From Candidatus Saccharimonadales bacterium (lineage in GTDB: Bacteria; Patescibacteriota; Saccharimonadia; Saccharimonadales; UBA10212), in contig JBBDZU010000007.1 of the NCBI GenBank assembly GCA_040900055.1, forward strand, positions 25,831 through 89,830: a DNA stretch of 64,000 nucleotides. The letters are read 5' to 3'. The translations under genes and the position numbers were made by a program. Numbering within the stretch: position 1 is the stretch's first letter; each line of letters starts with the position of its first letter. A model generated the notes under the pieces. The model did not search any database, was not told the DNA's origin, and was given only the letters and a program-made list of their open reading frames with translations. This document shows positions 32,464 to 53,800 of the stretch, one piece after another.

Positions 32464-32526
32464 CTGGCCTCAGCGGTCGGTCGAAACCTTAGGCTTAGCC
32501 AGTTGTAGTAATACATCTTACGATGC
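32453..32526 (-). ncRNA. predicted ~70-nt small RNA, antisense to the 3' end of the NYN gene
   Basis: Bounded by a minus-strand TTGACA-17-TAGTAT promoter and a minus-strand intrinsic terminator (AACTGGC...GCCAGTT stem, then A and seven T). Transcript ends are inferred. Confidence 0.4.
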
Positions 32527-32532
32527 AACAAC

Positions 32533-32561
32533 ATACTAACAATATTATGTCAACATGTCAA
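32533..32561 (-). promoter_or_regulatory. sigma70-like promoter on minus strand (TTGACA-17 nt-TAGTAT)
   Basis: The plus strand reads TGTCAA at 32556-32561 and ATACTA at 32533-32538, separated by a 17-nt spacer. A second TTGACA copy lies 8 nt downstream. Confidence 0.5.
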
Positions 32562-32949
32562 GGAGCTATCCACATGTGGCACTCGTGCGCTCGCCAGCAG
32601 TGAATCTGCGGAACGACAAGCGGTCCTCGTTCCTTCGGGCAGTCCTCGATTCTGGCTTTTGTCTCGCTTCAAACTCTCTCTGTTTTCTCACGGCTGAACT
32701 ATTTATTCTTCCTCAAAACACAATAATCAACAGTATGTTTACTATACTGGCCATTCCCGCCAGTACAATTATCGGTCCGCCGTAGTCCCGTATAGCTGTA
32801 ACGATAATAGAAACCTTAGTCGTTGGGATAACGTACAAGTAATTTTAGTCATTGCCTACTCGGTTTTACTTGGGCCACGAAACTTAATTTACTGCAAAAT
32901 ATACCAAGACGAGGCAGTAAGAAATAAAAATGCACACAGGAATGCTCAA

Positions 32950-33060
32950 GTGATCAATTGGACAAATAAAGTAATAAACTTTGTTCTAGCTGCTGAGCTA
33001 CTCTTTATAGCTACGTTCGTAGCGGCCCTGGTGGTGCTGCTATATAGCGTAATTCTGTAA
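32950..33060 (+). CDS. possible 36-aa hydrophobic peptide (very tentative)
   Basis: GTG start 7 nt after AGGAA. The product is MINWTNKVINFVLAAELLFIATFVAALVVLLYSVIL, a single predicted TM helix. Below the ORF-track length cutoff. Confidence 0.2.
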   Translation: MINWTNKVINFVLAAELLFIATFVAALVVLLYSVIL

Positions 33061-33087
33061 ATATTTGTAACTTAGGCTGGGCGAGGG

Positions 33088-33114
33088 TTGGCACTCGGGG
33101 TTGACGAGTGCTAG
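33088..33114. promoter_or_regulatory. CIRCE-like inverted repeat (HrcA-type operator) overlapping the clpC promoter
   Basis: TTGGCACTC-GGGGTTGAC-GAGTGCTAG compared with consensus TTAGCACTC-N9-GAGTGCTAA. The spacer ends in TTGAC (-35-like). TATAAT at 33122-33127, ATG at 33140. Confidence 0.8.
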
Positions 33115-33139
33115 TTTGTGATATAATGGGGGCTGTAAA

Positions 33140-35635
33140 ATGATTCCAAATTCACCTGATTTTCAAGAATTTTTAGGCCATTTGACCAACAATGCTTTGC
33201 ATTCGCTAAAGCAAGCCGACGCTATAGCCAGGGCTTCTAGCAGCGCCTACATTGGCACCGAGCATTTGCTGCTAGGTGTTTTAGCCCAAGATGGCTCCAT
33301 GGCTTCTAAAATCTTGGAAGGTACCGGCATTACGCTGGATAGGGCGCGGTTGGCGCTAAACCTAACGCCTAAAACCCTAGTTATCAATATGGGCGGCAAA
33401 GGTTTATCCGAAACCGCCAAACTAACCCTTAAAATGGCCTGGGAAATTGCCCAAGAGTTTGGCCAAGACTACTGCGGCACCGAGCACATTCTATACAGCA
33501 TCCTAAGCCAAAAGAACGCTCGGGCTACCACTTTGCTACGCGACATGAGCGTGGACATTGATAAATTATCATCCGAGGTCGAGCAGTTTCTTAACCGCCA
33601 GCAGTACGAGCACGACGGCGTAGGCTCTGCAAGCCGCCGCCGCACCAAAAATGCCAAGAAAAACGCTTTAGAATTTTTTGGCACCGACCTTACGGCACTT
33701 GCTAAAGAAGGCAAGCTTGATCCGGTAGTTGGTCGTGAGCCCCAAATCCGCCGAGTGATTACCATTTTAAACCGGCGCACTAAAAATAACCCGGTACTGA
33801 TCGGCGAACCGGGCGTTGGTAAAACCGCCATTGTAGAGGGCATTGCCCAGCGCATTATTAACGAGGAAGTTCCCGACAGTCTGCTTGATAAGCGCATTAT
33901 TACGCTAGATTTAGCCGGGATGATTGCCGGGACTAAATACCGCGGCGAGTTCGAAGACCGCTTAAAGAAAGTTATTGCGGAACTTGAGCAAGACAAAAAC
34001 ATCATTGTCTTTATTGACGAGCTGCACTTAATCGTCGGCGCTGGCGCGGCCGAGGGTTCTATGGACGCCGGCAACATTCTAAAACCCAGCTTAGCTCGGG
34101 GCAAGATCCAAATGGTTGGGGCCACGACTACCGATGATTACACCCGCTACATAGAAAAAGATGCTGCGCTTGAGCGACGCTTCCAGCCGATTCAAGTGCC
34201 TGAAGCTACCGTGGTGGAGACCTTAGCGATCCTTAAGGGCCTGCGCAGCCACTACGAGGAATTCCACGGCGTAAAAGTGGACGATGAAGTCCTAGGCGAC
34301 ACTGTTGGCTTTGCCCGCCGCTACATTAACGACCGCTACATGCCAGACAAAGCCATTGACTTACTGGACGAAACTTCTGCTTACCTGCGAGTCAACCGCG
34401 GCAAAACACCGCCGCAGCTTCGCCAGTTACACAAGGAGCTAAAACTGTCCAATACCCGCATAGAAGATGCCGTGGACGGCGAAGATTACGAAAAGGCTGC
34501 CAAAGAAAAACAAAAGGCCAGCCAAATTAAAGACCGCATTAAGCAAATGGAAGCGACCTACAAGGCCGGCAAACCTATCACAATTTCTTCCGACGATGTA
34601 GCCGAAACTGTTGCCCGTATGACTGGCGTGCCTACCCGTAAAGTTATCCGTAGCGAAGCTAAATACTTAGTAAATCTAGAAAAAAACCTTGGCAAATACA
34701 TTATTGGCCAGGAAGAGGCTGTAAAAACTGTAGCCGGCGCCGTGCGGCGCTCGCGCTCCGGTATCTCTAGCGAAAAGCGGCCGATTGGCTCGTTTATATT
34801 CTTAGGACCAACAGGTGTTGGTAAAACAGAACTTGGCAGAGTTTTGGCCCGCGAATTCTTTGGTAGCGACGACGCCTTAGTCAAAATTGACATGAGCGAA
34901 TTTGGCGAACATCACACTGTAGCCCGCCTAATTGGTGCCCCGGCTGGCTACGTTGGCTATGACGACGGCGGCCAGTTAACCGACCGCATTCGCCGACAAC
35001 CCTATAGCGTGGTGTTATTTGACGAAATCGAAAAAGCCCACCCCGATGTTTTCAATATGCTGCTGCAAATACTAGAAGACGGTACATTATCCGACGCCAA
35101 AGGCCGGAAAATTGACTTTACCAACACTATTATCATTATGACCAGCAATATTGGTGCCGAGAAACTGCAAAAAGAGGCCAGCTTTGGCTTTCGTGCCGCC
35201 AACCCGGCCGATTTGGAGAACCTAGACGAGCTGCACGCCGCCAATAAGAGCAAAGTGCTCGAAGACCTTAAAAAGACTATGCGACCGGAGCTGCTAAACC
35301 GGATCGATAAAATAGTTGTCTTTAGGGCTTTAACTAAAAAAGATGCTCTAAAGATTTTAGACATCCAGCTTGATGACCTTCGAACTCGGCTAATCAAAAA
35401 AGGTATTGGTCTAGAAGTAAGTAAAACAGCTAAAGACTATCTGCTGAGTAAGGGTTATGATGCCCAAAATGGTGCGCGGCCGATGCGGCGCTTGCTGCAG
35501 GAAACATTGGAAGACGCTATCGCTGGCGGCCTGTTGGAGGACGCCTACAACAAAGGCGACGTTGTGCAAGTGAAGACTAAAAAATCTGCCAAAGCCGAAG
35601 AGCCGCAACTAGTTTACGCGGCTACCCCAGAATAA
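33140..35635 (+). CDS. clpC: ATP-dependent Clp protease ATP-binding subunit ClpC
   Basis: Two Clp_N repeats, two AAA+ modules (GEPGVGKTA, GPTGVGKTE) and a UVR-like linker (GEDYEKAAKEKQKA). 831 aa. Confidence 0.95.
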   Translation: MIPNSPDFQEFLGHLTNNALHSLKQADAIARASSSAYIGTEHLLLGVLAQDGSMASKILEGTGITLDRARLALNLTPKTLVINMGGKGLSETAKLTLKMAWEIAQEFGQDYCGTEHILYSILSQKNARATTLLRDMSVDIDKLSSEVEQFLNRQQYEHDGVGSASRRRTKNAKKNALEFFGTDLTALAKEGKLDPVVGREPQIRRVITILNRRTKNNPVLIGEPGVGKTAIVEGIAQRIINEEVPDSLLDKRIITLDLAGMIAGTKYRGEFEDRLKKVIAELEQDKNIIVFIDELHLIVGAGAAEGSMDAGNILKPSLARGKIQMVGATTTDDYTRYIEKDAALERRFQPIQVPEATVVETLAILKGLRSHYEEFHGVKVDDEVLGDTVGFARRYINDRYMPDKAIDLLDETSAYLRVNRGKTPPQLRQLHKELKLSNTRIEDAVDGEDYEKAAKEKQKASQIKDRIKQMEATYKAGKPITISSDDVAETVARMTGVPTRKVIRSEAKYLVNLEKNLGKYIIGQEEAVKTVAGAVRRSRSGISSEKRPIGSFIFLGPTGVGKTELGRVLAREFFGSDDALVKIDMSEFGEHHTVARLIGAPAGYVGYDDGGQLTDRIRRQPYSVVLFDEIEKAHPDVFNMLLQILEDGTLSDAKGRKIDFTNTIIIMTSNIGAEKLQKEASFGFRAANPADLENLDELHAANKSKVLEDLKKTMRPELLNRIDKIVVFRALTKKDALKILDIQLDDLRTRLIKKGIGLEVSKTAKDYLLSKGYDAQNGARPMRRLLQETLEDAIAGGLLEDAYNKGDVVQVKTKKSAKAEEPQLVYAATPE

Positions 35636-45784: not shown

Positions 45785-45869
45785 GGGGATGTGGTGAAAT
45801 TGGTATACACGCTAGTTTTAGGAACTAGTGCCTTCGGGCGTGTAGGTTCGAGTCCTATCATCCCCACCA
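45785..45869 (+). tRNA. tRNA-Leu (anticodon UAG), CCA encoded
   Basis: Acceptor GGGGATG/CATCCCC, D arm GTG..CAC, anticodon stem CTAGT/ACTAG with loop TTTAGGA, long variable arm (TGCCTTCGGGCGT), T arm GTAGG-TTCGAGT-CCTAT, then ACCA. TATAAT lies 10 nt upstream. Confidence 0.9.
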
Positions 45870-47470: not shown

Positions 47471-48712
47471 ATGTCTCTGTCTACCCAACCGTATAAGGGC
47501 GCCCGTGATTTTTATCCGGAAGATAAACGCCTACAAAAATACATTTTTGACAAGCTGCGGCAAGTGGTAGAGAGTTTTGGCTACCAGGAATACGACGCCC
47601 CTATTTTAGAGCCGCTGGATATTTATTTAGCCAAGACCGGCGAAGAAATTGTTAACGAGCAACTCTACTCTTTTGTAGACCGCGGTGGGCGGCGGGTGGC
47701 CATTAGGCCGGAGATGACTCCATCTGTTAGCCGTATGGTTGCCGGCCGACGTCAAGAACTGGCCTATCCATTGCGCTGGTATAGCATTGCCAATTTTTGG
47801 CGTTATGAACGACCACAGCGCGGTCGCTTGCGCGAACACTACCAACTAAACGCCGATATTTTTGGAGTGGAAGGGGTTGCGGCTGACGCCGAAATCATCC
47901 AAGTGGCTGATTCTATCCTCAAATCACTAGGAGCTAAGGCCGAGATGTATAGAATCAACATCAACAGTCGGGTAGCTATGATTCAAGCAATGAAAGAGTT
48001 TGGTCTAGAGGGAACTGAGCTGAAAGCCGTATACAAACTGGTCGATAAAATGCCAAAACTGACTGACGAAGATTTTAAAAAAGTATTGTCAGAAAATTTG
48101 TCCGCGGAAAAAGCCACTAAGCTGCTGAAATATCTAGATAATAATCAACCGCCGGAAAAGGTCGACAGGTTACTATCCCTACTAAAAAGTGTTGGCGTAA
48201 CAAGCGCTACTTACGAGCCGAGTGTAGTTCGTGGGCTTGAATATTACACCGACATTGTTTTTGAGGTGTTCGACACTAACCCCGAGAATGCTAGGGCGTT
48301 GTTCGGTGGCGGGCGCTACGACGGGTTGGTGGGGCTGTTTGGGGTAGAGCCGCTACCAACCGTAGGTTTTGGTATGGGTGACGTAACGCTGCAAAACTTT
48401 TTAGAGGCGCATAAACTTTTGCCGAAGCTACAAGTCGAAACCGATGCCATTGTGGTATTAATTGGCGATTTGTACGAATCTGCCCAAAGCCTGCTGGCGC
48501 AGCTGCGTGAGTCCGGCTTAAAACTGGCCGTAGACAGCAGCGGCCGTAAACTAGATGCTCAGCTTAAAAGTGCTGATAAGTCTGGCGTCAAGCACGTAAT
48601 TTTTATTGGCGAAGCCGAACTAAAATCCAAAAAGCTAAAACTTAAAAATTTACAGACCGGGGATGAGAGGCAGCTGAGCGCAGAAGAATTGGTCAAGGCT
48701 CTTCAAAGCTGA
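47471..48712 (+). CDS. hisS: histidine--tRNA ligase
   Basis: GARDFYPED, RPEMTPSVSRM, WRYERPQRGRLREHYQ and GGGRYDGL motifs. ATG 7 nt after TATAAT. Confidence 0.95.
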   Translation: MSLSTQPYKGARDFYPEDKRLQKYIFDKLRQVVESFGYQEYDAPILEPLDIYLAKTGEEIVNEQLYSFVDRGGRRVAIRPEMTPSVSRMVAGRRQELAYPLRWYSIANFWRYERPQRGRLREHYQLNADIFGVEGVAADAEIIQVADSILKSLGAKAEMYRININSRVAMIQAMKEFGLEGTELKAVYKLVDKMPKLTDEDFKKVLSENLSAEKATKLLKYLDNNQPPEKVDRLLSLLKSVGVTSATYEPSVVRGLEYYTDIVFEVFDTNPENARALFGGGRYDGLVGLFGVEPLPTVGFGMGDVTLQNFLEAHKLLPKLQVETDAIVVLIGDLYESAQSLLAQLRESGLKLAVDSSGRKLDAQLKSADKSGVKHVIFIGEAELKSKKLKLKNLQTGDERQLSAEELVKALQS

Positions 48713-49995
48713 TGCAGGTAAGCCGAACGGATATTAGCCCAACAATGGTGCGACTGACGGTTGAAACCGGTGAGCCTGAGCTGTTGCCTATTAAAACTCA
48801 TGTACTAGGGCATTTTGCCGGGTCTGTAAACGTGCCTGGATTTAGGGCCGGCAAGGTCCCGACCTACTTACTGGAAAAGCACGTAGATCAGCGCGCATTA
48901 CTTGATGAATTCATGGAGCATGCTGTTAACAGCCTTTATAGACGAGCTGTAGAGTCCGAGAAACTAAGACCTGTACTGCCGCCCAAAGTCGAGGTCAAGA
49001 AATTTGTACCATATAGCGACCTGACGTTCGAGATAGAAGTTGATGTTGTGGGCAACATAAAGCTGCCAGACTATAAAAAAATTAAATTAGCTAAACCAAA
49101 AGCGACTGTCTCGGCAGAGGAAGTTAACAATGTGATTTCCTCGCTGCAAAAACAACTAGCCGAGCGTAAAGAAGTAGATAGACCAGCCAAAACTGGCGAC
49201 GAAGTAGTTATCGACTTTACTGGCAATCACCAAGACGGCAAGCCGGTAAGTGGCGGTACGGGTAAAGATTACCCGCTGTTACTTGGCGGCAATAGCTTTA
49301 TTCCAGGGTTTGAAGACCAGATTGTTGGCTTAAAAGCCGGCCAAACCAAAGAGTTCTCCCTAACCTTTCCGAAAGATTACGGGGCGAAGGCTTTAGCTGG
49401 GGTTAAAGTGGACTTTGGCGTTAGTGTTAGAAAAGTCCACCAGTTGGTAGAGCCTAAAGTTGATGATGCTTTAGCAGCTAAAGCTGGGCCTTTTAAGACT
49501 GTGGTGGAGCTAAAAGCCGACATTAAAAAACAAATGGGTATAGAAAAGAATAGGCAAGCTGACCGAGATTTTGAAACTGAGTTAATTAAACAAATTGTTA
49601 CTGGATCTAGCGTTGAAGTTCCGGATAGTTTAATTGACGAGCAAGTAAAGCAATCAGAGGAAACCGAGAGGCGCAATTTGATTGCTCGCGGTCAAACCTG
49701 GCAGGAGCATTTAGCCGATGAGGGAGTCACCGAGGAGCAGCATCGCCAGCGCCATAGGCCAGATGCCGCCGAAAAAGTTAAAGCCGGCCTAGTTTTATCG
49801 GAAATAGCCGAAGCAGAAAATATCAATGTTACGCCAGAGGAAGTCGCCAGCCGAATTGAGCTGCTTAAGGGCCAATATAAAGATGCCGCTATGCAAGCCG
49901 AGCTAGATAAGCCCGAAAACCGCCAAGACATTGCCGCCCGCTTACTAACCGAAAAAGTCATTGCCAGACTGGTCGAGCATAGCCAAATAAGCTAG
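48712..49995 (+). CDS. tig: trigger factor
   Basis: N-terminal ribosome-binding region (GFRAGKVP), central FKBP-like domain (FIPGFEDQIVGLKAGQ) and helical C-terminal arm. Start overlaps the hisS stop. Confidence 0.92.
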   Translation: MQVSRTDISPTMVRLTVETGEPELLPIKTHVLGHFAGSVNVPGFRAGKVPTYLLEKHVDQRALLDEFMEHAVNSLYRRAVESEKLRPVLPPKVEVKKFVPYSDLTFEIEVDVVGNIKLPDYKKIKLAKPKATVSAEEVNNVISSLQKQLAERKEVDRPAKTGDEVVIDFTGNHQDGKPVSGGTGKDYPLLLGGNSFIPGFEDQIVGLKAGQTKEFSLTFPKDYGAKALAGVKVDFGVSVRKVHQLVEPKVDDALAAKAGPFKTVVELKADIKKQMGIEKNRQADRDFETELIKQIVTGSSVEVPDSLIDEQVKQSEETERRNLIARGQTWQEHLADEGVTEEQHRQRHRPDAAEKVKAGLVLSEIAEAENINVTPEEVASRIELLKGQYKDAAMQAELDKPENRQDIAARLLTEKVIARLVEHSQIS

Positions 49996-50018
49996 CACTC
50001 TTGCTTGACGAGTGCTAA
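49992..50018. promoter_or_regulatory. CIRCE-like inverted repeat (HrcA-type operator) overlapping the clpP promoter
   Basis: CTAGCACTC-TTGCTTGAC-GAGTGCTAA. The spacer again ends in TTGAC. TATAAT at 50029-50034, ATG at 50043. The left arm overlaps the tig stop codon. Confidence 0.85.
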
Positions 50019-50042
50019 TTTATCGGAATATAATAATTGCGT

Positions 50043-50675
50043 ATGGACAAACCCAGCAACCAGATTTTGGTGCCCACAGTTATAGAGCAAGAGGGCCGGA
50101 TAGAGCGAGCCTACGACATCTACAGCCGCCTGCTTAAGGACCGCATTATCTTTTTGGGCGATGAAGTTAATCAACACACCTCCAACCTAATCGTCGCCCA
50201 GATGCTATTTTTGGAGAACGAAAGCCCAGACAAAGACATCTTGTTTTATATCAACAGCCCTGGTGGCAGTGTTTACGATGCCTTTGCCATTTATGACACT
50301 ATGCAATTTGTTAAAAACGATATTCAAACAGTAGGCATCGGCGTACAGGCTTCGGCTGCAGCTTTTCTGCTAAGCGCAGGCACCAAAGGCAAGCGGCTAC
50401 TTTTACCCCACGCAACTGTGATGATCCACCAACCTTCTAGCGCGTCCCAGCGCTCCTCAATAAGTGACTTAGAAATCGACCTTAAAGAAGGCATTAGGCT
50501 AAAGCACTTGCTTAACGAGATTTTAGCCAAAAATACTGGCCAGAAGTTGGCCAAAATCGAAAAAGACGTTGACCGCAACTACTGGATGAGCGCCGAAGAA
50601 GCCGAGGCCTATGGGCTAGTGGATAAAGTTATTGACAGCCGGAAGATCGCTGCCACAGTCCAAAAACAAGCGTAG
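50043..50675 (+). CDS. clpP: ATP-dependent Clp protease proteolytic subunit
   Basis: [21 protein letters not shown] (catalytic Ser) and MIHQP (His). I prefer the ATG at 50043 over the listed TTG at 50037. Confidence 0.95.
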
Positions 50676-50843
50676 TGCCCAGTTCAGTTAGGGGTTGATT
50701 ATCTGTTAGCGTTTAGGTAATATAAATGTTAAGAAGTAGTGTACTTTGGCGGTGCTGTGTTTGGTAACAGTTCAAAACCGCTGGATGTAGTGGGCTTCGC
50801 CAAAAGCGACAAACTATAAAGACTAATTAGGGAGCATTTCTAT

Positions 50844-53800
50844 TTGATGGCCAAAAACACTGGCACGTTTGAAAGACGCACGTACTTTACCAAGTCAGAC
50901 GAAATTATAAATCCGCCAAATCTGGTAAGCCACCAGAGCGATTCGTTCGACTGGTTTGTTAGGGAGGGATTAGGCGAGTTACTGGTCGAGGTTAGCCCTA
51001 TAGATGACTACACCGGTACTAAATTGAGCATTAAATTTTTAGATTATCACTTCGAAAAAACTAAATTAACCGAGAACGAGGCCCGCGAAAATAATGTCAG
51101 CTTTGAAGCGCCTCTAAAAGCTACGGTCGAGTTGACCAATAAAGTTACGGGTGAAGTAAAAAAACAAGAAATATATTTGGGTGATTACCCTTGGATGACC
51201 TCTAGAGGGACTTTTGTAATTAACGGTGCTGAACGGGTAGTTGTTAGCCAGCTGATTAGATCTTCCGGAGTGTTTTTTACGGCCGAGCCACATGGCGCCA
51301 CAAACTTATACGGCGCCAAAGTTATCCCTGTACGGGGTGCTTGGCTAGAGTTTGAAACTTCTGCAGCCGGTGTGCTGTATGTAAAAATTGACCGTAAGCG
51401 GAAAATTGCCGTCACTACATTATTAAAAGCCCTAGGCATGAACCCCGAGCAGATTCGAGCAGCTTTTGCTCACGTAGACACAGGGGCAGCTAGCCAAATT
51501 AGCGCAACCTTAGAAAAAGACCCCAGCCACTCACTAAACGAGGCTTTAATTGAAGTTTATAGGCGTCTGCGGCCGGGAGACTTAGCCACCGTTGAGAATG
51601 CCCGCTCGCTGCTAGAAAATATGTTTTATAATTTTAAGCGCTTTGATTTTGGCAAAGTAGGACGCTACAAGATTAATAAGCGCCTTGATCTTAACGTGCC
51701 TAACACCACAGAAAACCGGGTTATGCGCATAGACGATCTAACAGCTATTATTGCCGAAATAATCCGTCTAAATAACACCCAAGAGCCGGGTGACGAGATT
51801 GACTCACTGGCTAACCGCCGAGTCAAACTAGTTGGCGAGTTGGTCCAACGTCAATTCCGCATAGGATTACTTCGTATGGAGCGTAACGCCAAAGACCGTA
51901 TGAGTATGTCTGAGATAGAAACCGTTACTCCTGCCCAACTAATTAATGCCAGACCGGTTGTAGCCGCCGTACGAGAGTTTTTTGCCTCTAGCCAGCTTAG
52001 CCAGTTTATGGACCAGATTAATCCTCTTTCGGAACTTGCCCATAAGCGGCGCTTAAGTTCAATGGGTCCTGGTGGCCTAAGCCGCGAGCGCGCCGGTTTT
52101 GAGGTCCGTGACGCCCACGCCACCCACTATGGCCGCATTTGCCCAGTCGAGACTCCGGAAGGTGCCAACATTGGCCTGGTGCTGAATTTGGCTTCCTTTG
52201 CCCGCATTAATGAATATGGCTTTATTGAAACTCCTTACCGTAAGGTAATTAATGCTGTGAGTGCCCGCGAAGCCGCTGGACATATTGCCTCCGCCGATCT
52301 AGAAGACTCAGGCGGTAAGGTCATTGTCAAAGCAGGGGTAACTATCACCGCCGCCGCTGCCAAAAGATTAGCTGGAGTTAAAGGGCGCGCTACCTGGCCA
52401 GTAAAAGCTAAGACTACCTCTAAGATTGTATTCTTAGATGCTGCCGAAGAAGAACAAGCCGTAGTTGCCGGCGCCGGCAACGAAATTGACGATAACGGCT
52501 ATTTTATCGAACCACGTGTTAGTGCTCGCCACCACTTAGAGCCGGGCGAAGTCGACGCTAATGAAGTTACCCATATGGACTCTAGCCGGGCCCAGACTAT
52601 TGGTAGCAGTGCTGGCTTAATCCCCTTTGTTGAGAAAAATTACGTTTTACGTTCACTGATGGGCTCCAACCAGCAGCGTCAGGCTGTGCCGCTAATTAAG
52701 CCTGAAAGCCCAATTGTTGGCACTGGCTTAGAAACTGTTGTGGCCCATAACACCGGACAGCTAATTGTCGCCGAAGATGATGGCCAAGTTCTAAGGGCCA
52801 CAGCCGACGAGGTAGCCGTTAAATATAAAAACGGCAAAACCAAAACTTACGAGCCAGTGCACTTTGTCCGTAGTAACGAAGGCAGCTCCATAAACCAAGT
52901 CGTGGCGGTGGATAGCGGCGAAAAAGTCAAAGCTGGCCAGCCGCTGATAGAAGGCATGAGTATTGCCGACGGAGAATTGGCCTTAGGCAAAGACTTACTA
53001 GTAGCTTTTATGCCTTGGGCCGGCTACAACTTTGAAGACGCCATTATTATTTCCCGCCGCTTGGTTGAAGATGACAGCCTAACTTCTATTCACATCGTCG
53101 ACTACATGACAGAAGTGCGTGAGACCAAACTGGGGCCAGAGATAGTCACGCGTGATATTCCAAACGTTAGCGAAGAGTCGCTTAGACACCTAGACGAAGA
53201 CGGCATCGTGCGCATTGGTGCCGAAGTCCACCCGGGCGACATTTTAGTAGGCAAGATTACCCCTAAAGGCGAGCAAGAATTATCATCTGAGGAGCGCTTG
53301 CTTAGAGCCATCTTTGGCGAAAAAGCTAAAGAAGTCCGTGACACTTCCCAGCGTATGAGTACCGGACGCCATGGCAAAGTGGTTGGCGTAAAAGTCTTCT
53401 CCAGAGCTTTAGGCCACGAACTAAAAGCCGGCGTCATTATGCAGATCCAAGTTTTTGTAGCTCAAATGCGAAAAATTGCCGTAGGCGATAAATTAGGCGG
53501 GCGCCATGGTAATAAAGGGGTAATCGCCAGGATTTTGCCAATAGAAGATATGCCTTTTAATGATGACGGTGTGCCAGTTGACATTATTTTAAATCCGCTA
53601 GGTGTGCCTTCCAGGATGAACATTGGCCAGCTATTTGAGACCCATCTTGGTATGGCAGCTCGCGCTTTAGGTATCAAAGTCATTAGCCCGGCCTTTAACG
53701 GCGTAAGAATAGATAAAATTCAAGAATTGCTAGGCCAAGCCGGCCTGCCCAAAGACGGTAAACAGCAGCTATATGACGGACGAAACGGTGAGTCGTTTGC

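What the first reader, a model, noticed from the sequence alone, without database searches (positions are those of the whole stretch)
49992..50045. Second CIRCE operator, over the clpP promoter and overlapping the tig stop codon
CTAGCACTC-TTGCTTGAC-GAGTGCTAA matches the consensus in 17 of 18 arm positions. It has the same spacer ending (TTGAC) as the clpC copy, and TATAAT lies 18 nt after TTGACG. The clpP ATG is only 8 nt past the -10, suggesting a leaderless transcript. The left arm contains the tig TAG. tig read-through and clpP initiation would therefore both meet a bound repressor. Two independent copies with identical architecture make chance very unlikely.
Basis: partly seen in the sequence, partly recalled or inferred. 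Interest (0 to 1): 0.65.

Follow-up and report, generated by a model that had tools for sequence, protein, structure and literature searches.

The report
CIRCE heat-shock operator on clpP promoter
A textbook heat-shock repressor binding site (CIRCE) sits on the promoter of the ClpP protease gene in this Saccharibacteria genome and in 76 of the 80 closest related species genomes fetched (nearly all labelled Saccharibacteria), so the lineage seems to switch its protease on together with its chaperonins, a sensible but not revolutionary rewiring of a known circuit.

Summary
CTAGCACTC-TTGCTTGAC-GAGTGCTAA (49992-50018) matches CIRCE in 17 of 18 arm positions. It contains the tig stop codon and holds a -35 (TTGACG) in its spacer. 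TATAAT follows 18 nt later, and the clpP ATG comes 8 nt after that, with no ribosome-binding site.

It is not chance. The window has 2 matches where 0.04 are expected. A CIRCE lies at the same place in 76 of 80 related genomes, nearly all labelled Saccharibacteria.

In those genomes the eight core bases of each arm (TAGCACTC / GAGTGCTA) barely vary: 2 deviating bases in 76 sites. The spacer varies except for TTGAC. The -10 follows the -35 rather than the palindrome. In 60 of 77 loci the ATG lies within 11 nt of the -10, which indicates a leaderless message.

The same composite operator-promoter precedes clpC here and in 3 metagenome loci, and groES-groEL in an NCBI-labelled Saccharibacteria genome.

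Most likely mechanism: HrcA bound to CIRCE blocks RNA polymerase, and proteotoxic stress releases it.

Weak points:
- I could not find hrcA in this genome or in any Saccharibacteria sequence. I found only a short form in other CPR bacteria.
- The overlap with the tig stop codon is not conserved (5 of 77).

Verdict: a new member of a known kind, of moderate interest.

The parts
49992..50018 (.). CIRCE operator: left arm 49992-50000 (CTAGCACTC), spacer 50001-50009 (TTGCTTGAC), right arm 50010-50018 (GAGTGCTAA)
   Evidence: Sequence. One mismatch to the consensus, and 2 matches in the window against 0.04 expected. An orthologous site is present in 76 of 80 related genomes. The eight core bases of each arm are near-invariant: one C-to-G in the left core and one G-to-A in the right core among 76 sites.
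50005..50010 (+). -35 element TTGACG. Five bases lie in the CIRCE spacer and the sixth is the first base of the right arm.
   Evidence: An exact TTGAC lies inside the CIRCE in 72 of 77 orthologous loci, at offset 13 (43 loci), 9 (27) or 11 (6). Among unrelated CIRCE sites from IMG/VR contigs, only 4 of 125 have it.
50029..50034 (+). -10 element TATAAT, 18 nt after the -35
   Evidence: 11 of 12 match. In relatives the -10 lies 17-18 nt after the -35 in 73 of 77 loci, so it moves with the -35 and not with the palindrome.
50043..50675 (+). clpP coding sequence from ATG 50043, probably translated from a leaderless or nearly leaderless mRNA
   Evidence: Pfam CLP_protease, E = 4e-74. No SD motif lies in the 8 nt between the -10 and the ATG. 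The N-terminus MDKPS aligns with relatives that start at the equivalent ATG. The ATG lies within 11 nt of the -10 in 60 of 77 loci. A public gene call uses TTG 50037 instead. That start lies only 2 nt after the -10, so this promoter's transcript could not include it.
48712..49995 (+). tig (trigger factor). Its stop codon TAG 49993-49995 lies inside the left arm.
   Evidence: Pfam Trigger_N, FKBP_C and Trigger_C. tig lies upstream of clpP in nearly all related loci, but its stop is inside the arm in only 4 of them. About 20 abut the site and the rest end roughly 100-2200 nt upstream of it.
33088..33114 (.). Sister CIRCE before clpC (TTGGCACTC-GGGGTTGAC-GAGTGCTAG), with -35 TTGACG at 33101-33106 and extended -10 TGaTATAAT at 33119-33127
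   Evidence: The same composite site lies before ClpC homologues in metagenome loci L141 (59% identical to the window ClpC), L184 and L107.
33140..35635 (+). clpC (Clp ATPase), a second proposed member of the same regulon
   Evidence: Pfam Clp_N, AAA, AAA_2 and ClpB_D2-small. NCBI names this exact protein an ATP-dependent Clp protease ATP-binding subunit of a Candidatus Saccharimonadales bacterium.

Best explanation
This is a working CIRCE operator fused to the sigma-70-type promoter of clpP.

The -35 hexamer sits in the 9-nt spacer of the palindrome, and the right arm fills the first half of the gap between the -35 and the -10. A dimeric repressor bound to the two arms would therefore cover the -35 and the DNA next to it and keep RNA polymerase off the promoter (steric exclusion). 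By every precedent that repressor is HrcA.

In the established HrcA model, HrcA needs GroEL/GroES to stay active. When unfolded proteins occupy the chaperonin, HrcA leaves the DNA.

Here that would start transcription about 7-9 nt after the -10, at or just before the A of the ATG, giving a leaderless clpP mRNA. clpC and groESL would be switched on together with it through sister sites.

Shown: the site, the promoter geometry, their conservation and co-variation across relatives, and the sister sites.

Inferred: the identity of the repressor, the repression itself, the stress signal and the transcription start site.
For: - Match and chance.
- Conservation: 76 of 80 related genomes, nearly all labelled Saccharibacteria, carry one CIRCE at this position and nowhere else in about 6.6 kb. 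Of these, 36 are perfect, 32 have one mismatch and 8 have two.
- Selection: the eight core bases of each arm deviate at only 2 bases in 76 sites, while ClpP identity falls to 67% and Tig identity to 38%. The palindrome extends to AA...TT flanks.
- Promoter: the -35 lies inside the spacer, and the -10 tracks it at 17-18 nt from three different offsets. TTGACG-18-TATAAT is the best promoter match in the region.
- Leaderless start: 60 of 77 loci have the ATG within 11 nt of the -10, and 16 of the other 17 have an SD-like motif.
- Regulon: a perfect CIRCE with an embedded -35 lies before groES-groEL in NCBI Saccharibacteria assembly GCA_035437425.1. The same site lies before clpC here and in L107, L141 and L184.
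- Regulator family in the wider radiation: hrcA-grpE-dnaK operons of other CPR bacteria carry the same composite operator (L112, L129, L152; Pfam PF01628).
- Literature: HrcA footprints of 30-40 bp over core promoters repress by steric interference (PMC7464140). groESL is the constant member of HrcA regulons (PMC545781).
Against: - No hrcA turned up in the 64 kb window (Pfam or NCBIfam on 40 ORFs; HMM built from about 150 short HrcA representatives).
- None turned up in about 12.7 kb beyond the window ends (10 kb left, 2.7 kb right), or in roughly 0.6 Mb of fetched loci from related genomes.
- None of the named proteins among about 360 listed short-HrcA hits is from Saccharibacteria.
- These searches were targeted and capped, so they are absence of evidence, not evidence of absence.
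- There are no expression or binding data.
- An 18-nt spacing is slightly longer than the optimum.
- Four of the 80 fetched loci lack the site. One is labelled Saccharibacteria, two Parcubacteria and one only 'bacterium'.
Confidence: 0.8

Rival explanations
1. The palindrome works mainly as RNA. On tig transcripts it would form a 9-bp hairpin that terminates or stabilises the tig message, and the likeness to CIRCE is secondary.
For: The site begins inside the tig stop codon and is followed by TTTAT. The centroid fold of 49975-50045 contains the hairpin. From my own knowledge of the B. subtilis literature, CIRCE within a transcript can affect mRNA stability.
Against: The terminator scan did not call it: the loop is 9 nt and the T-tract is weak. 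Folding energy is ordinary, z = -0.74. In many relatives the site lies roughly 100 to 2200 nt beyond the end of tig. The same site precedes clpC and groES, where no gene ends nearby. A hairpin needs only complementarity, yet here the exact base identities of the arms are near-invariant, with no compensatory changes. That pattern points to protein recognition.
Confidence: 0.05
2. The site is a real operator on the clpP promoter, but in Saccharibacteria a protein other than a recognisable HrcA binds it.
For: I found no hrcA in any Saccharibacteria sequence, and no Saccharibacteria name among the listed short-HrcA hits. No paper in the library links HrcA with Saccharibacteria, Patescibacteria or the CPR.
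Against: The arms equal the universal CIRCE consensus, and the canonical target groESL carries the site in the same lineage. Other CPR classes have HrcA with the same operator design. NCBI names the short CPR HrcA 'hypothetical protein' or 'DeoR family', so its absence from annotation and from the literature is expected. My searches could list only the 120-150 best hits of families with thousands of members.
Confidence: 0.1
3. The site is a chance palindrome or a decayed relic with no present function.
For: One arm position departs from the consensus (C for T at 49992).
Against: The window has 2 matches against 0.04 expected. The site is present at the orthologous position in 76 of 80 genomes, with near-invariant cores and a co-varying promoter. 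The C variant at arm position 1 occurs in 9 of the 76 relatives and coincides with tig stop codons.
Confidence: 0.02

Closest known systems
CIRCE/HrcA control of groESL and hrcA-grpE-dnaK (class I heat-shock genes; Bacillus subtilis and many other bacteria)
   Same: The same inverted repeat TTAGCACTC-N9-GAGTGCTAA with the same 9-nt spacer. It lies in the promoter region of a protein-quality-control gene, and a groESL copy exists in the same lineage (consensus as quoted in PMC545781 and PMC3842655).
   Different: The target here is the ClpP protease, and clpC as well, rather than a chaperone. The -35 lies inside the spacer, so the operator is not transcribed from its own promoter. From my own knowledge, in B. 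subtilis CIRCE lies between the transcription start site and the ribosome-binding site. Only 4 of 125 unrelated CIRCE sites had a TTGAC over the spacer. The message is leaderless.
clpP of Streptococcus salivarius, regulated by both CtsR and HrcA (Chastanet and Msadek 2003, cited in PMC3842655 and PMC6305308)
   Same: It is a clpP gene under CIRCE/HrcA control, so clpP as an HrcA target has a precedent (I read only the title and citing text, since the paper itself is not held).
   Different: In streptococci the clp genes are mainly CtsR targets and HrcA is added on top. Here the window has no CtsR box with 2 or fewer mismatches to the RGTCAAANANRGTCAAA consensus I used. CIRCE is the only recognisable operator, and the arrangement is conserved across the lineage rather than in one species.
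HrcA operators over core promoters in Helicobacter pylori and Campylobacter jejuni (PMC7464140)
   Same: The repressor covers core promoter elements and is thought to act by steric interference with RNA polymerase.
   Different: Those sites are CIRCE-like, centre on the transcription start site, and work together with HspR. Here the site is a near-perfect CIRCE centred on the -35, and no HAIR-like (HspR-type) inverted repeat is evident in the promoter region as read (not formally scanned).
CIRCE with embedded -35 before hsp20, clpB, lon and dnaJ in Firmicutes-like gut-metagenome contigs
   Same: The composite GCACTC-N4-TTGAC-GAGTGC is identical, with a -10 about 17 nt downstream.
   Different: Those promoters have TG-extended -10 elements (GTGCTATAAC), leaders of 60-180 nt and SD sites. 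Their targets are different genes in a different phylum.

Membership tests
CIRCE operator of the HrcA regulon | Inverted repeat matching TTAGCACTC-N9-GAGTGCTAA with a 9-nt spacer | tested here: met
   17 of 18 arm positions and a 9-nt spacer.
CIRCE operator of the HrcA regulon | Located in the promoter or 5' region of a heat-shock or protein-quality-control gene | tested here: met
   The site overlaps the -35 and the -35/-10 spacer of clpP.
CIRCE operator of the HrcA regulon | Conserved at the orthologous position in related genomes, with base-specific conservation of the arms | tested here: met
   Present in 76 of 80 genomes. The core TAGCACTC/GAGTGCTA is near-invariant (2 deviating bases in 76 sites) while the spacer varies.
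CIRCE operator of the HrcA regulon | The canonical target groESL carries a CIRCE in the same lineage | tested here: met
   A perfect CIRCE lies 80 nt upstream of groES-groEL in NCBI Candidatus Saccharibacteria assembly GCA_035437425.1. Similar groES loci are L086, L116, L119, L135, L154, L156 and L198.
CIRCE operator of the HrcA regulon | An hrcA gene in the same genome | tested here: inconclusive
   No hrcA in the 64 kb window, in about 12.7 kb beyond its ends or in the related loci fetched. The rest of the 236.6 kb contig and of the genome could not be read. A short HrcA exists in other CPR classes.
CIRCE operator of the HrcA regulon | HrcA binds the site, and the gene is derepressed by heat or in an hrcA mutant | not testable with these tools
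   This needs EMSA or footprinting and expression data.
CtsR operator (class III heat-shock genes, the usual control of clpP and clpC in Firmicutes) | Tandem heptad direct repeat RGTCAAANANRGTCAAA in the promoter (consensus from my own knowledge; PMC3192767 quotes a slightly different form) | tested here: not met
   The window has no match with 2 or fewer mismatches. Ten scattered 3-mismatch hits include one in the tig coding sequence at 49971.
Intrinsic (Rho-independent) terminator of tig | G+C-rich hairpin with a short loop, followed directly by a run of T | tested here: not met
   The terminator scan did not call it. The loop is 9 nt and the tail is TTTAT. The fold z-score is -0.74.
Leaderless mRNA | The start codon lies at the distance from the -10 where transcription starts, with no SD motif | tested here: met
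   In the window 8 nt separate the -10 from the ATG and contain no SD. In relatives 60 of 77 loci have a gap of at most 11 nt, with a mode of 7-8.
Leaderless mRNA | The mapped 5' end coincides with the start codon | not testable with these tools
   This needs 5'-end mapping.

The most novel reading that the evidence does not exclude
In Saccharibacteria, CIRCE may be the single proteostasis switch. It would join the chaperonin (groESL) and the Clp protease (clpP, clpC) in one regulon through promoters built into the operator. It would be read by a non-canonical repressor: either the short CPR-type HrcA, which lacks about 90 central residues of the solved Thermotoga protein, or a protein that is not recognisably HrcA.
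Probability: 0.2. Interest if true: 0.55.

Novelty: new member of a known kind. Interest (0 to 1): 0.35.

Why it matters
Saccharibacteria are ultra-small epibionts with few regulators, and almost nothing is known about how they control genes. A near-invariant operator and promoter module in front of clpP, clpC and groESL gives a concrete, testable regulon for the lineage. It also shows that the protease and the chaperonin are probably induced together. In Firmicutes these are usually split between CtsR and HrcA.

There are practical uses too:
- It gives a validated promoter model for the group (TTGAC, 17-18 nt, TAnnnT, then a leaderless ATG).
- It corrects a gene start: ATG 50043, not TTG 50037.
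- It flags that the short CPR HrcA is usually annotated as hypothetical.

It does not change how the CIRCE/HrcA system itself is understood.

Tried and rejected
1. Finding hrcA.
- Pfam or NCBIfam on 40 window ORFs found none.
- tblastn and an HMM of short HrcA representatives against all fetched loci hit only L112, L129, L152 and IMG/VR contigs L207-L209. A second run of the HMM on the later IMG/VR loci hit only L219.
- Three searches of the large protein collection listed only Moranbacteria, Parcubacteria, Falkowbacteria, Buchananbacteria, Giovannonibacteria or unnamed Patescibacteria proteins.
- A search of representatives found 2654 with E < 1e-30, but it gives no names.
- Name look-ups for 20 representatives chosen for Saccharibacteria-like amino-acid composition gave only 'Patescibacteria group' and Sungbacteria.
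- Genomic context of P0281, P0124 and P0217 showed CPR hrcA-grpE(-hsp20-dnaK) loci that could not be tied to Saccharibacteria.
- Walking off both window ends found nothing.
- Two IMG/VR scans found no Saccharibacteria contigs.

2. L196 and L191 looked like new CIRCE targets but turned out to be tig-clpP again. L087 is not hrcA, and L089 is a groES locus of another CPR bacterium.

3. The terminator reading was rejected, and CtsR control was rejected.

4. Rfam found no RNA family at the site; the only hit in the window is a tRNA at 45785-45866.

5. Literature searches for HrcA together with Saccharibacteria, Patescibacteria, CPR or TM7 gave nothing relevant. The S. salivarius clpP paper is not held.
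Full report
**What is in the sequence**

Between tig (48712-49995; Trigger_N, FKBP_C and Trigger_C domains) and clpP (CLP_protease, E = 4e-74) the window reads agCTAGCACTC-TTGCTTGAC-GAGTGCTAA-tttatcggaaTATAATaattgcgtATG.
- The arms are 49992-50000 and 50010-50018. They match TTAGCACTC-N9-GAGTGCTAA in 17 of 18 positions.
- The tig stop TAG is at 49993-49995.
- TTGACG is at 50005-50010 and TATAAT at 50029-50034, 18 nt apart.
- The clpP ATG is at 50043, 8 nt after the -10.
- No purine-rich ribosome-binding motif lies in between.

A pattern search with up to 3 mismatches finds two sites in the 64 kb, this one and 33088-33114 before clpC. The expectation is 0.04, and no shuffle reached two. TTGACG-18-TATAAT is the best sigma-70-like match in 49500-50900, at 11 of 12.

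**Where the window comes from**

The ClpC and Tig proteins of the window are identical to NCBI proteins MEX2006956.1 and MEX2006969.1. These belong to a Candidatus Saccharimonadales metagenome-assembled genome, on a contig of 236,585 bp. The closest ClpP loci in species-representative genomes are almost all labelled Saccharibacteria or Saccharimonadales.

**Conservation**

I fetched the 80 closest clpP loci from species-representative genomes (ClpP identity 67-84%) and scanned them. Nearly all are labelled Saccharibacteria or Saccharimonadales; a few carry other or no lineage names.
- 76 loci carry exactly one CIRCE with at most 2 mismatches, always about 50 nt upstream of clpP and nowhere else in the roughly 6.6 kb fetched.
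- 36 of these are perfect, 32 have one mismatch and 8 have two.
- The eight core bases of each arm (TAGCACTC and GAGTGCTA) are the same in nearly all 76; the only exceptions are one C-to-G in the left core (L007) and one G-to-A in the right core (L050). The palindrome extends outward to AA...TT in about 80%.
- Over the same set Tig identity falls to 38%, and the spacer varies.
- A hairpin would tolerate compensatory changes, and none is seen. This pattern indicates a site read base by base by a protein.
- The four loci without a site comprise one labelled Saccharibacteria, two labelled Parcubacteria and one labelled only 'bacterium'.

**The promoter is built into the operator**

- In 72 of 77 loci (76 relatives plus the window) an exact TTGAC lies inside the CIRCE.
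- It sits at offset 13 in 43 loci (the last five spacer bases, as here), at offset 9 in 27 (the first five) and at offset 11 in 6.
- The best -10 lies 17-18 nt after that -35 in 73 of 77 loci. It starts 9-10 nt after the right arm when the -35 is at offset 13, and 3-6 nt after it when the -35 is at offset 9.
- So the -10 follows the -35 and not the palindrome. This independent co-variation supports the promoter assignment.
- Among 125 CIRCE sites in unrelated IMG/VR contigs, only 4 have TTGAC over the spacer. The arrangement is therefore a feature of this lineage rather than of CIRCE in general.

**Leaderless start**

The first in-frame ATG lies within 11 nt of the -10 in 60 of 77 loci, with a mode of 7-8 nt. 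Of the 17 loci with leaders of 15-94 nt, 16 have a GGAG, GAGG or AGGA motif before the start.

It also supports ATG 50043 as the start. A public gene call uses TTG 50037, which lies 2 nt after the -10, so this promoter's transcript could not include it.

**Other members of the regulon**

It returned 120 loci.

Loci resembling Saccharibacteria (by similarity to the window's proteins, or by an NCBI label in one case) carry the composite site in front of three genes:
- clpP: eleven loci, with ClpP 62-79% identical to the window protein.
- clpC: L141, whose ClpC is 59% identical to the window ClpC, plus L184 and L107.
- groES-groEL: L086, L116, L119, L135, L154, L156 and L198.

NCBI names the GroEL and GroES of L135 as Candidatus Saccharibacteria proteins. 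The corresponding NCBI assembly GCA_035437425.1 has a perfect TTAGCACTCAGCCTTGACGAGTGCTAA 80 nt before groES. groESL is the constant member of HrcA regulons (PMC545781), so the lineage has the canonical target as well.

The clpC site in the window has the -35 at the same offset. Its -10 lies 15 nt downstream with a TG extension, whereas the ClpC homologues have 17 nt.

**The architecture is not unique to Saccharibacteria**

The same scan returned many Firmicutes-like gut contigs. In these the composite site precedes hsp20, clpB, lon or dnaJ, with TG-extended -10 elements and long SD-bearing leaders. It also returned hrcA-grpE-dnaK operons of other CPR bacteria (L112, L129, L152).

**The repressor**

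This is the weak point.
- No hrcA lies in the window, in about 12.7 kb beyond its ends, or in the related loci I hold.
- The HrcA proteins I did find are a short form of 225-260 residues. They match Pfam PF01628.
- They belong to Moranbacteria, Parcubacteria, Sungbacteria, Falkowbacteria, Buchananbacteria and similar groups.
- The short family is large, with 2654 representatives at E < 1e-30.
- Each search lists only its best 120-150 hits, and none that carried a name was from Saccharibacteria.
- NCBI labels these proteins 'hypothetical protein' or 'DeoR family'. That would explain why no paper in the library links HrcA with Saccharibacteria, Patescibacteria or the CPR.

I therefore infer HrcA from three facts: the universal operator sequence, the groESL copy in the lineage, and the presence of HrcA with the same operator design in sister lineages. 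I have not shown it.

**Mechanism**

With the -35 in the spacer and the right arm between the -35 and the -10, a bound dimer would cover the region polymerase must contact. HrcA footprints of 30-40 bp over core promoters are thought to repress by steric interference (PMC7464140).

From my own knowledge, B. subtilis differs: there CIRCE lies downstream of the transcription start site and is part of the mRNA. Here the operator is not transcribed from its own promoter.

Release under stress would follow the GroEL-titration model of HrcA activity. That is established for other bacteria and inferred here.

**The overlap with tig**

tig lies upstream of clpP in nearly all loci. Its stop is inside the left arm in only 4 relatives plus this window. 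About 20 loci abut the site, and the rest end roughly 100-2200 nt upstream of it.

The overlap is best read as tight packing, since TTAG or CTAG offers a TAG stop. No terminator is called after tig, and the hairpin is thermodynamically ordinary (z = -0.74). Read-through from tig into clpP is therefore possible, and a bound repressor could impede it, but nothing tested here bears on that.

**Comparison with what is known**

- The site meets the sequence, position, conservation and regulon-context criteria for a CIRCE operator. The regulator criterion is inconclusive, and the binding criterion cannot be tested here.
- clpP under HrcA has a precedent in Streptococcus salivarius, where it is regulated together with CtsR (cited in PMC3842655 and PMC6305308).
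- In Firmicutes, clp genes are normally CtsR targets (PMC6305308). The window has no CtsR box with 2 or fewer mismatches to the consensus I used.
- What is new is the lineage-wide placement of clpP and clpC under CIRCE in Saccharibacteria, the operator-embedded -35, and the leaderless clpP message.

**Verdict**

It is a new member of a known kind. It is of moderate interest (0.35) to people who study CPR biology or heat-shock regulons, and it settles no open question. Confidence in the HrcA-operator explanation is 0.8. The main remaining doubt is that no hrcA has been shown in this lineage.

Noticed in passing
L112, L129, L152, L210, L212, L338; proteins P0001-P0522: CPR bacteria encode a short HrcA of 225-260 aa. 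Against the solved Thermotoga maritima HrcA (1STZ, 338 aa) it aligns to residues 15-139 and 230-330, so about 90 central residues are missing. From memory these form the inserted dimerising domain. Many Moranbacteria-type members end in a hydrophobic tail. NCBI names them 'hypothetical protein' or 'DeoR family'. The family has 2654 representatives at E < 1e-30.
   Followed up: partly
L082-L201 (for example L099, L108, L113, L194): In Firmicutes-like gut-metagenome contigs the same CIRCE with a -35 in its spacer precedes hsp20, clpB, lon and dnaJ. It comes with a TG-extended -10 (GTGCTATAAC) and leaders of 60-180 nt. Several sites are identical across many contigs.
   Followed up: partly
window 32464-33087: About 620 nt upstream of the clpC operator contain no ORF of 100 aa or more and give no Rfam match at gathering score. 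The stretch has G+C-rich segments that look unlike the flanking sequence.
   Followed up: no
window 50037-50045: A public gene call starts clpP at TTG 50037 (212 aa, MRMDKPS...). Promoter geometry and homologue N-termini favour ATG 50043 (210 aa).
   Followed up: yes
L002-L081, positions -2/-1 and +28/+29 relative to the 27-nt CIRCE: In these Saccharibacteria-type loci the operator palindrome extends by two bases on each side (AA-TTAGCACTC-N9-GAGTGCTAA-TT), in about 80% of sites. In the window the left extension is AG because it lies in tig coding sequence.
   Followed up: partly
L292 5425-5547 (IMG/VR contig IMGVR_UViG_3300038675_000167): Three CIRCE cores lie in tandem, exactly 49 nt apart, on a contig classed as viral.
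   Followed up: no
L210 9930-10003; L338 9850-10000: hrcA promoters differ among CPR bacteria. In L210 a perfect CIRCE lies between a TTGACA-17-TATAAT promoter and the ATG, which is the classical arrangement. In L338 no CIRCE with 3 or fewer mismatches occurs anywhere in the locus, and dnaK is not adjacent.
   Followed up: no
window 50675-50844: clpP is followed directly by rpoB and rpoC, with no clpX next to it. The same hisS-tig-clpP-rpoB order is seen in the identical Logan contig L001. tig lies upstream of clpP in nearly all related loci.
   Followed up: no
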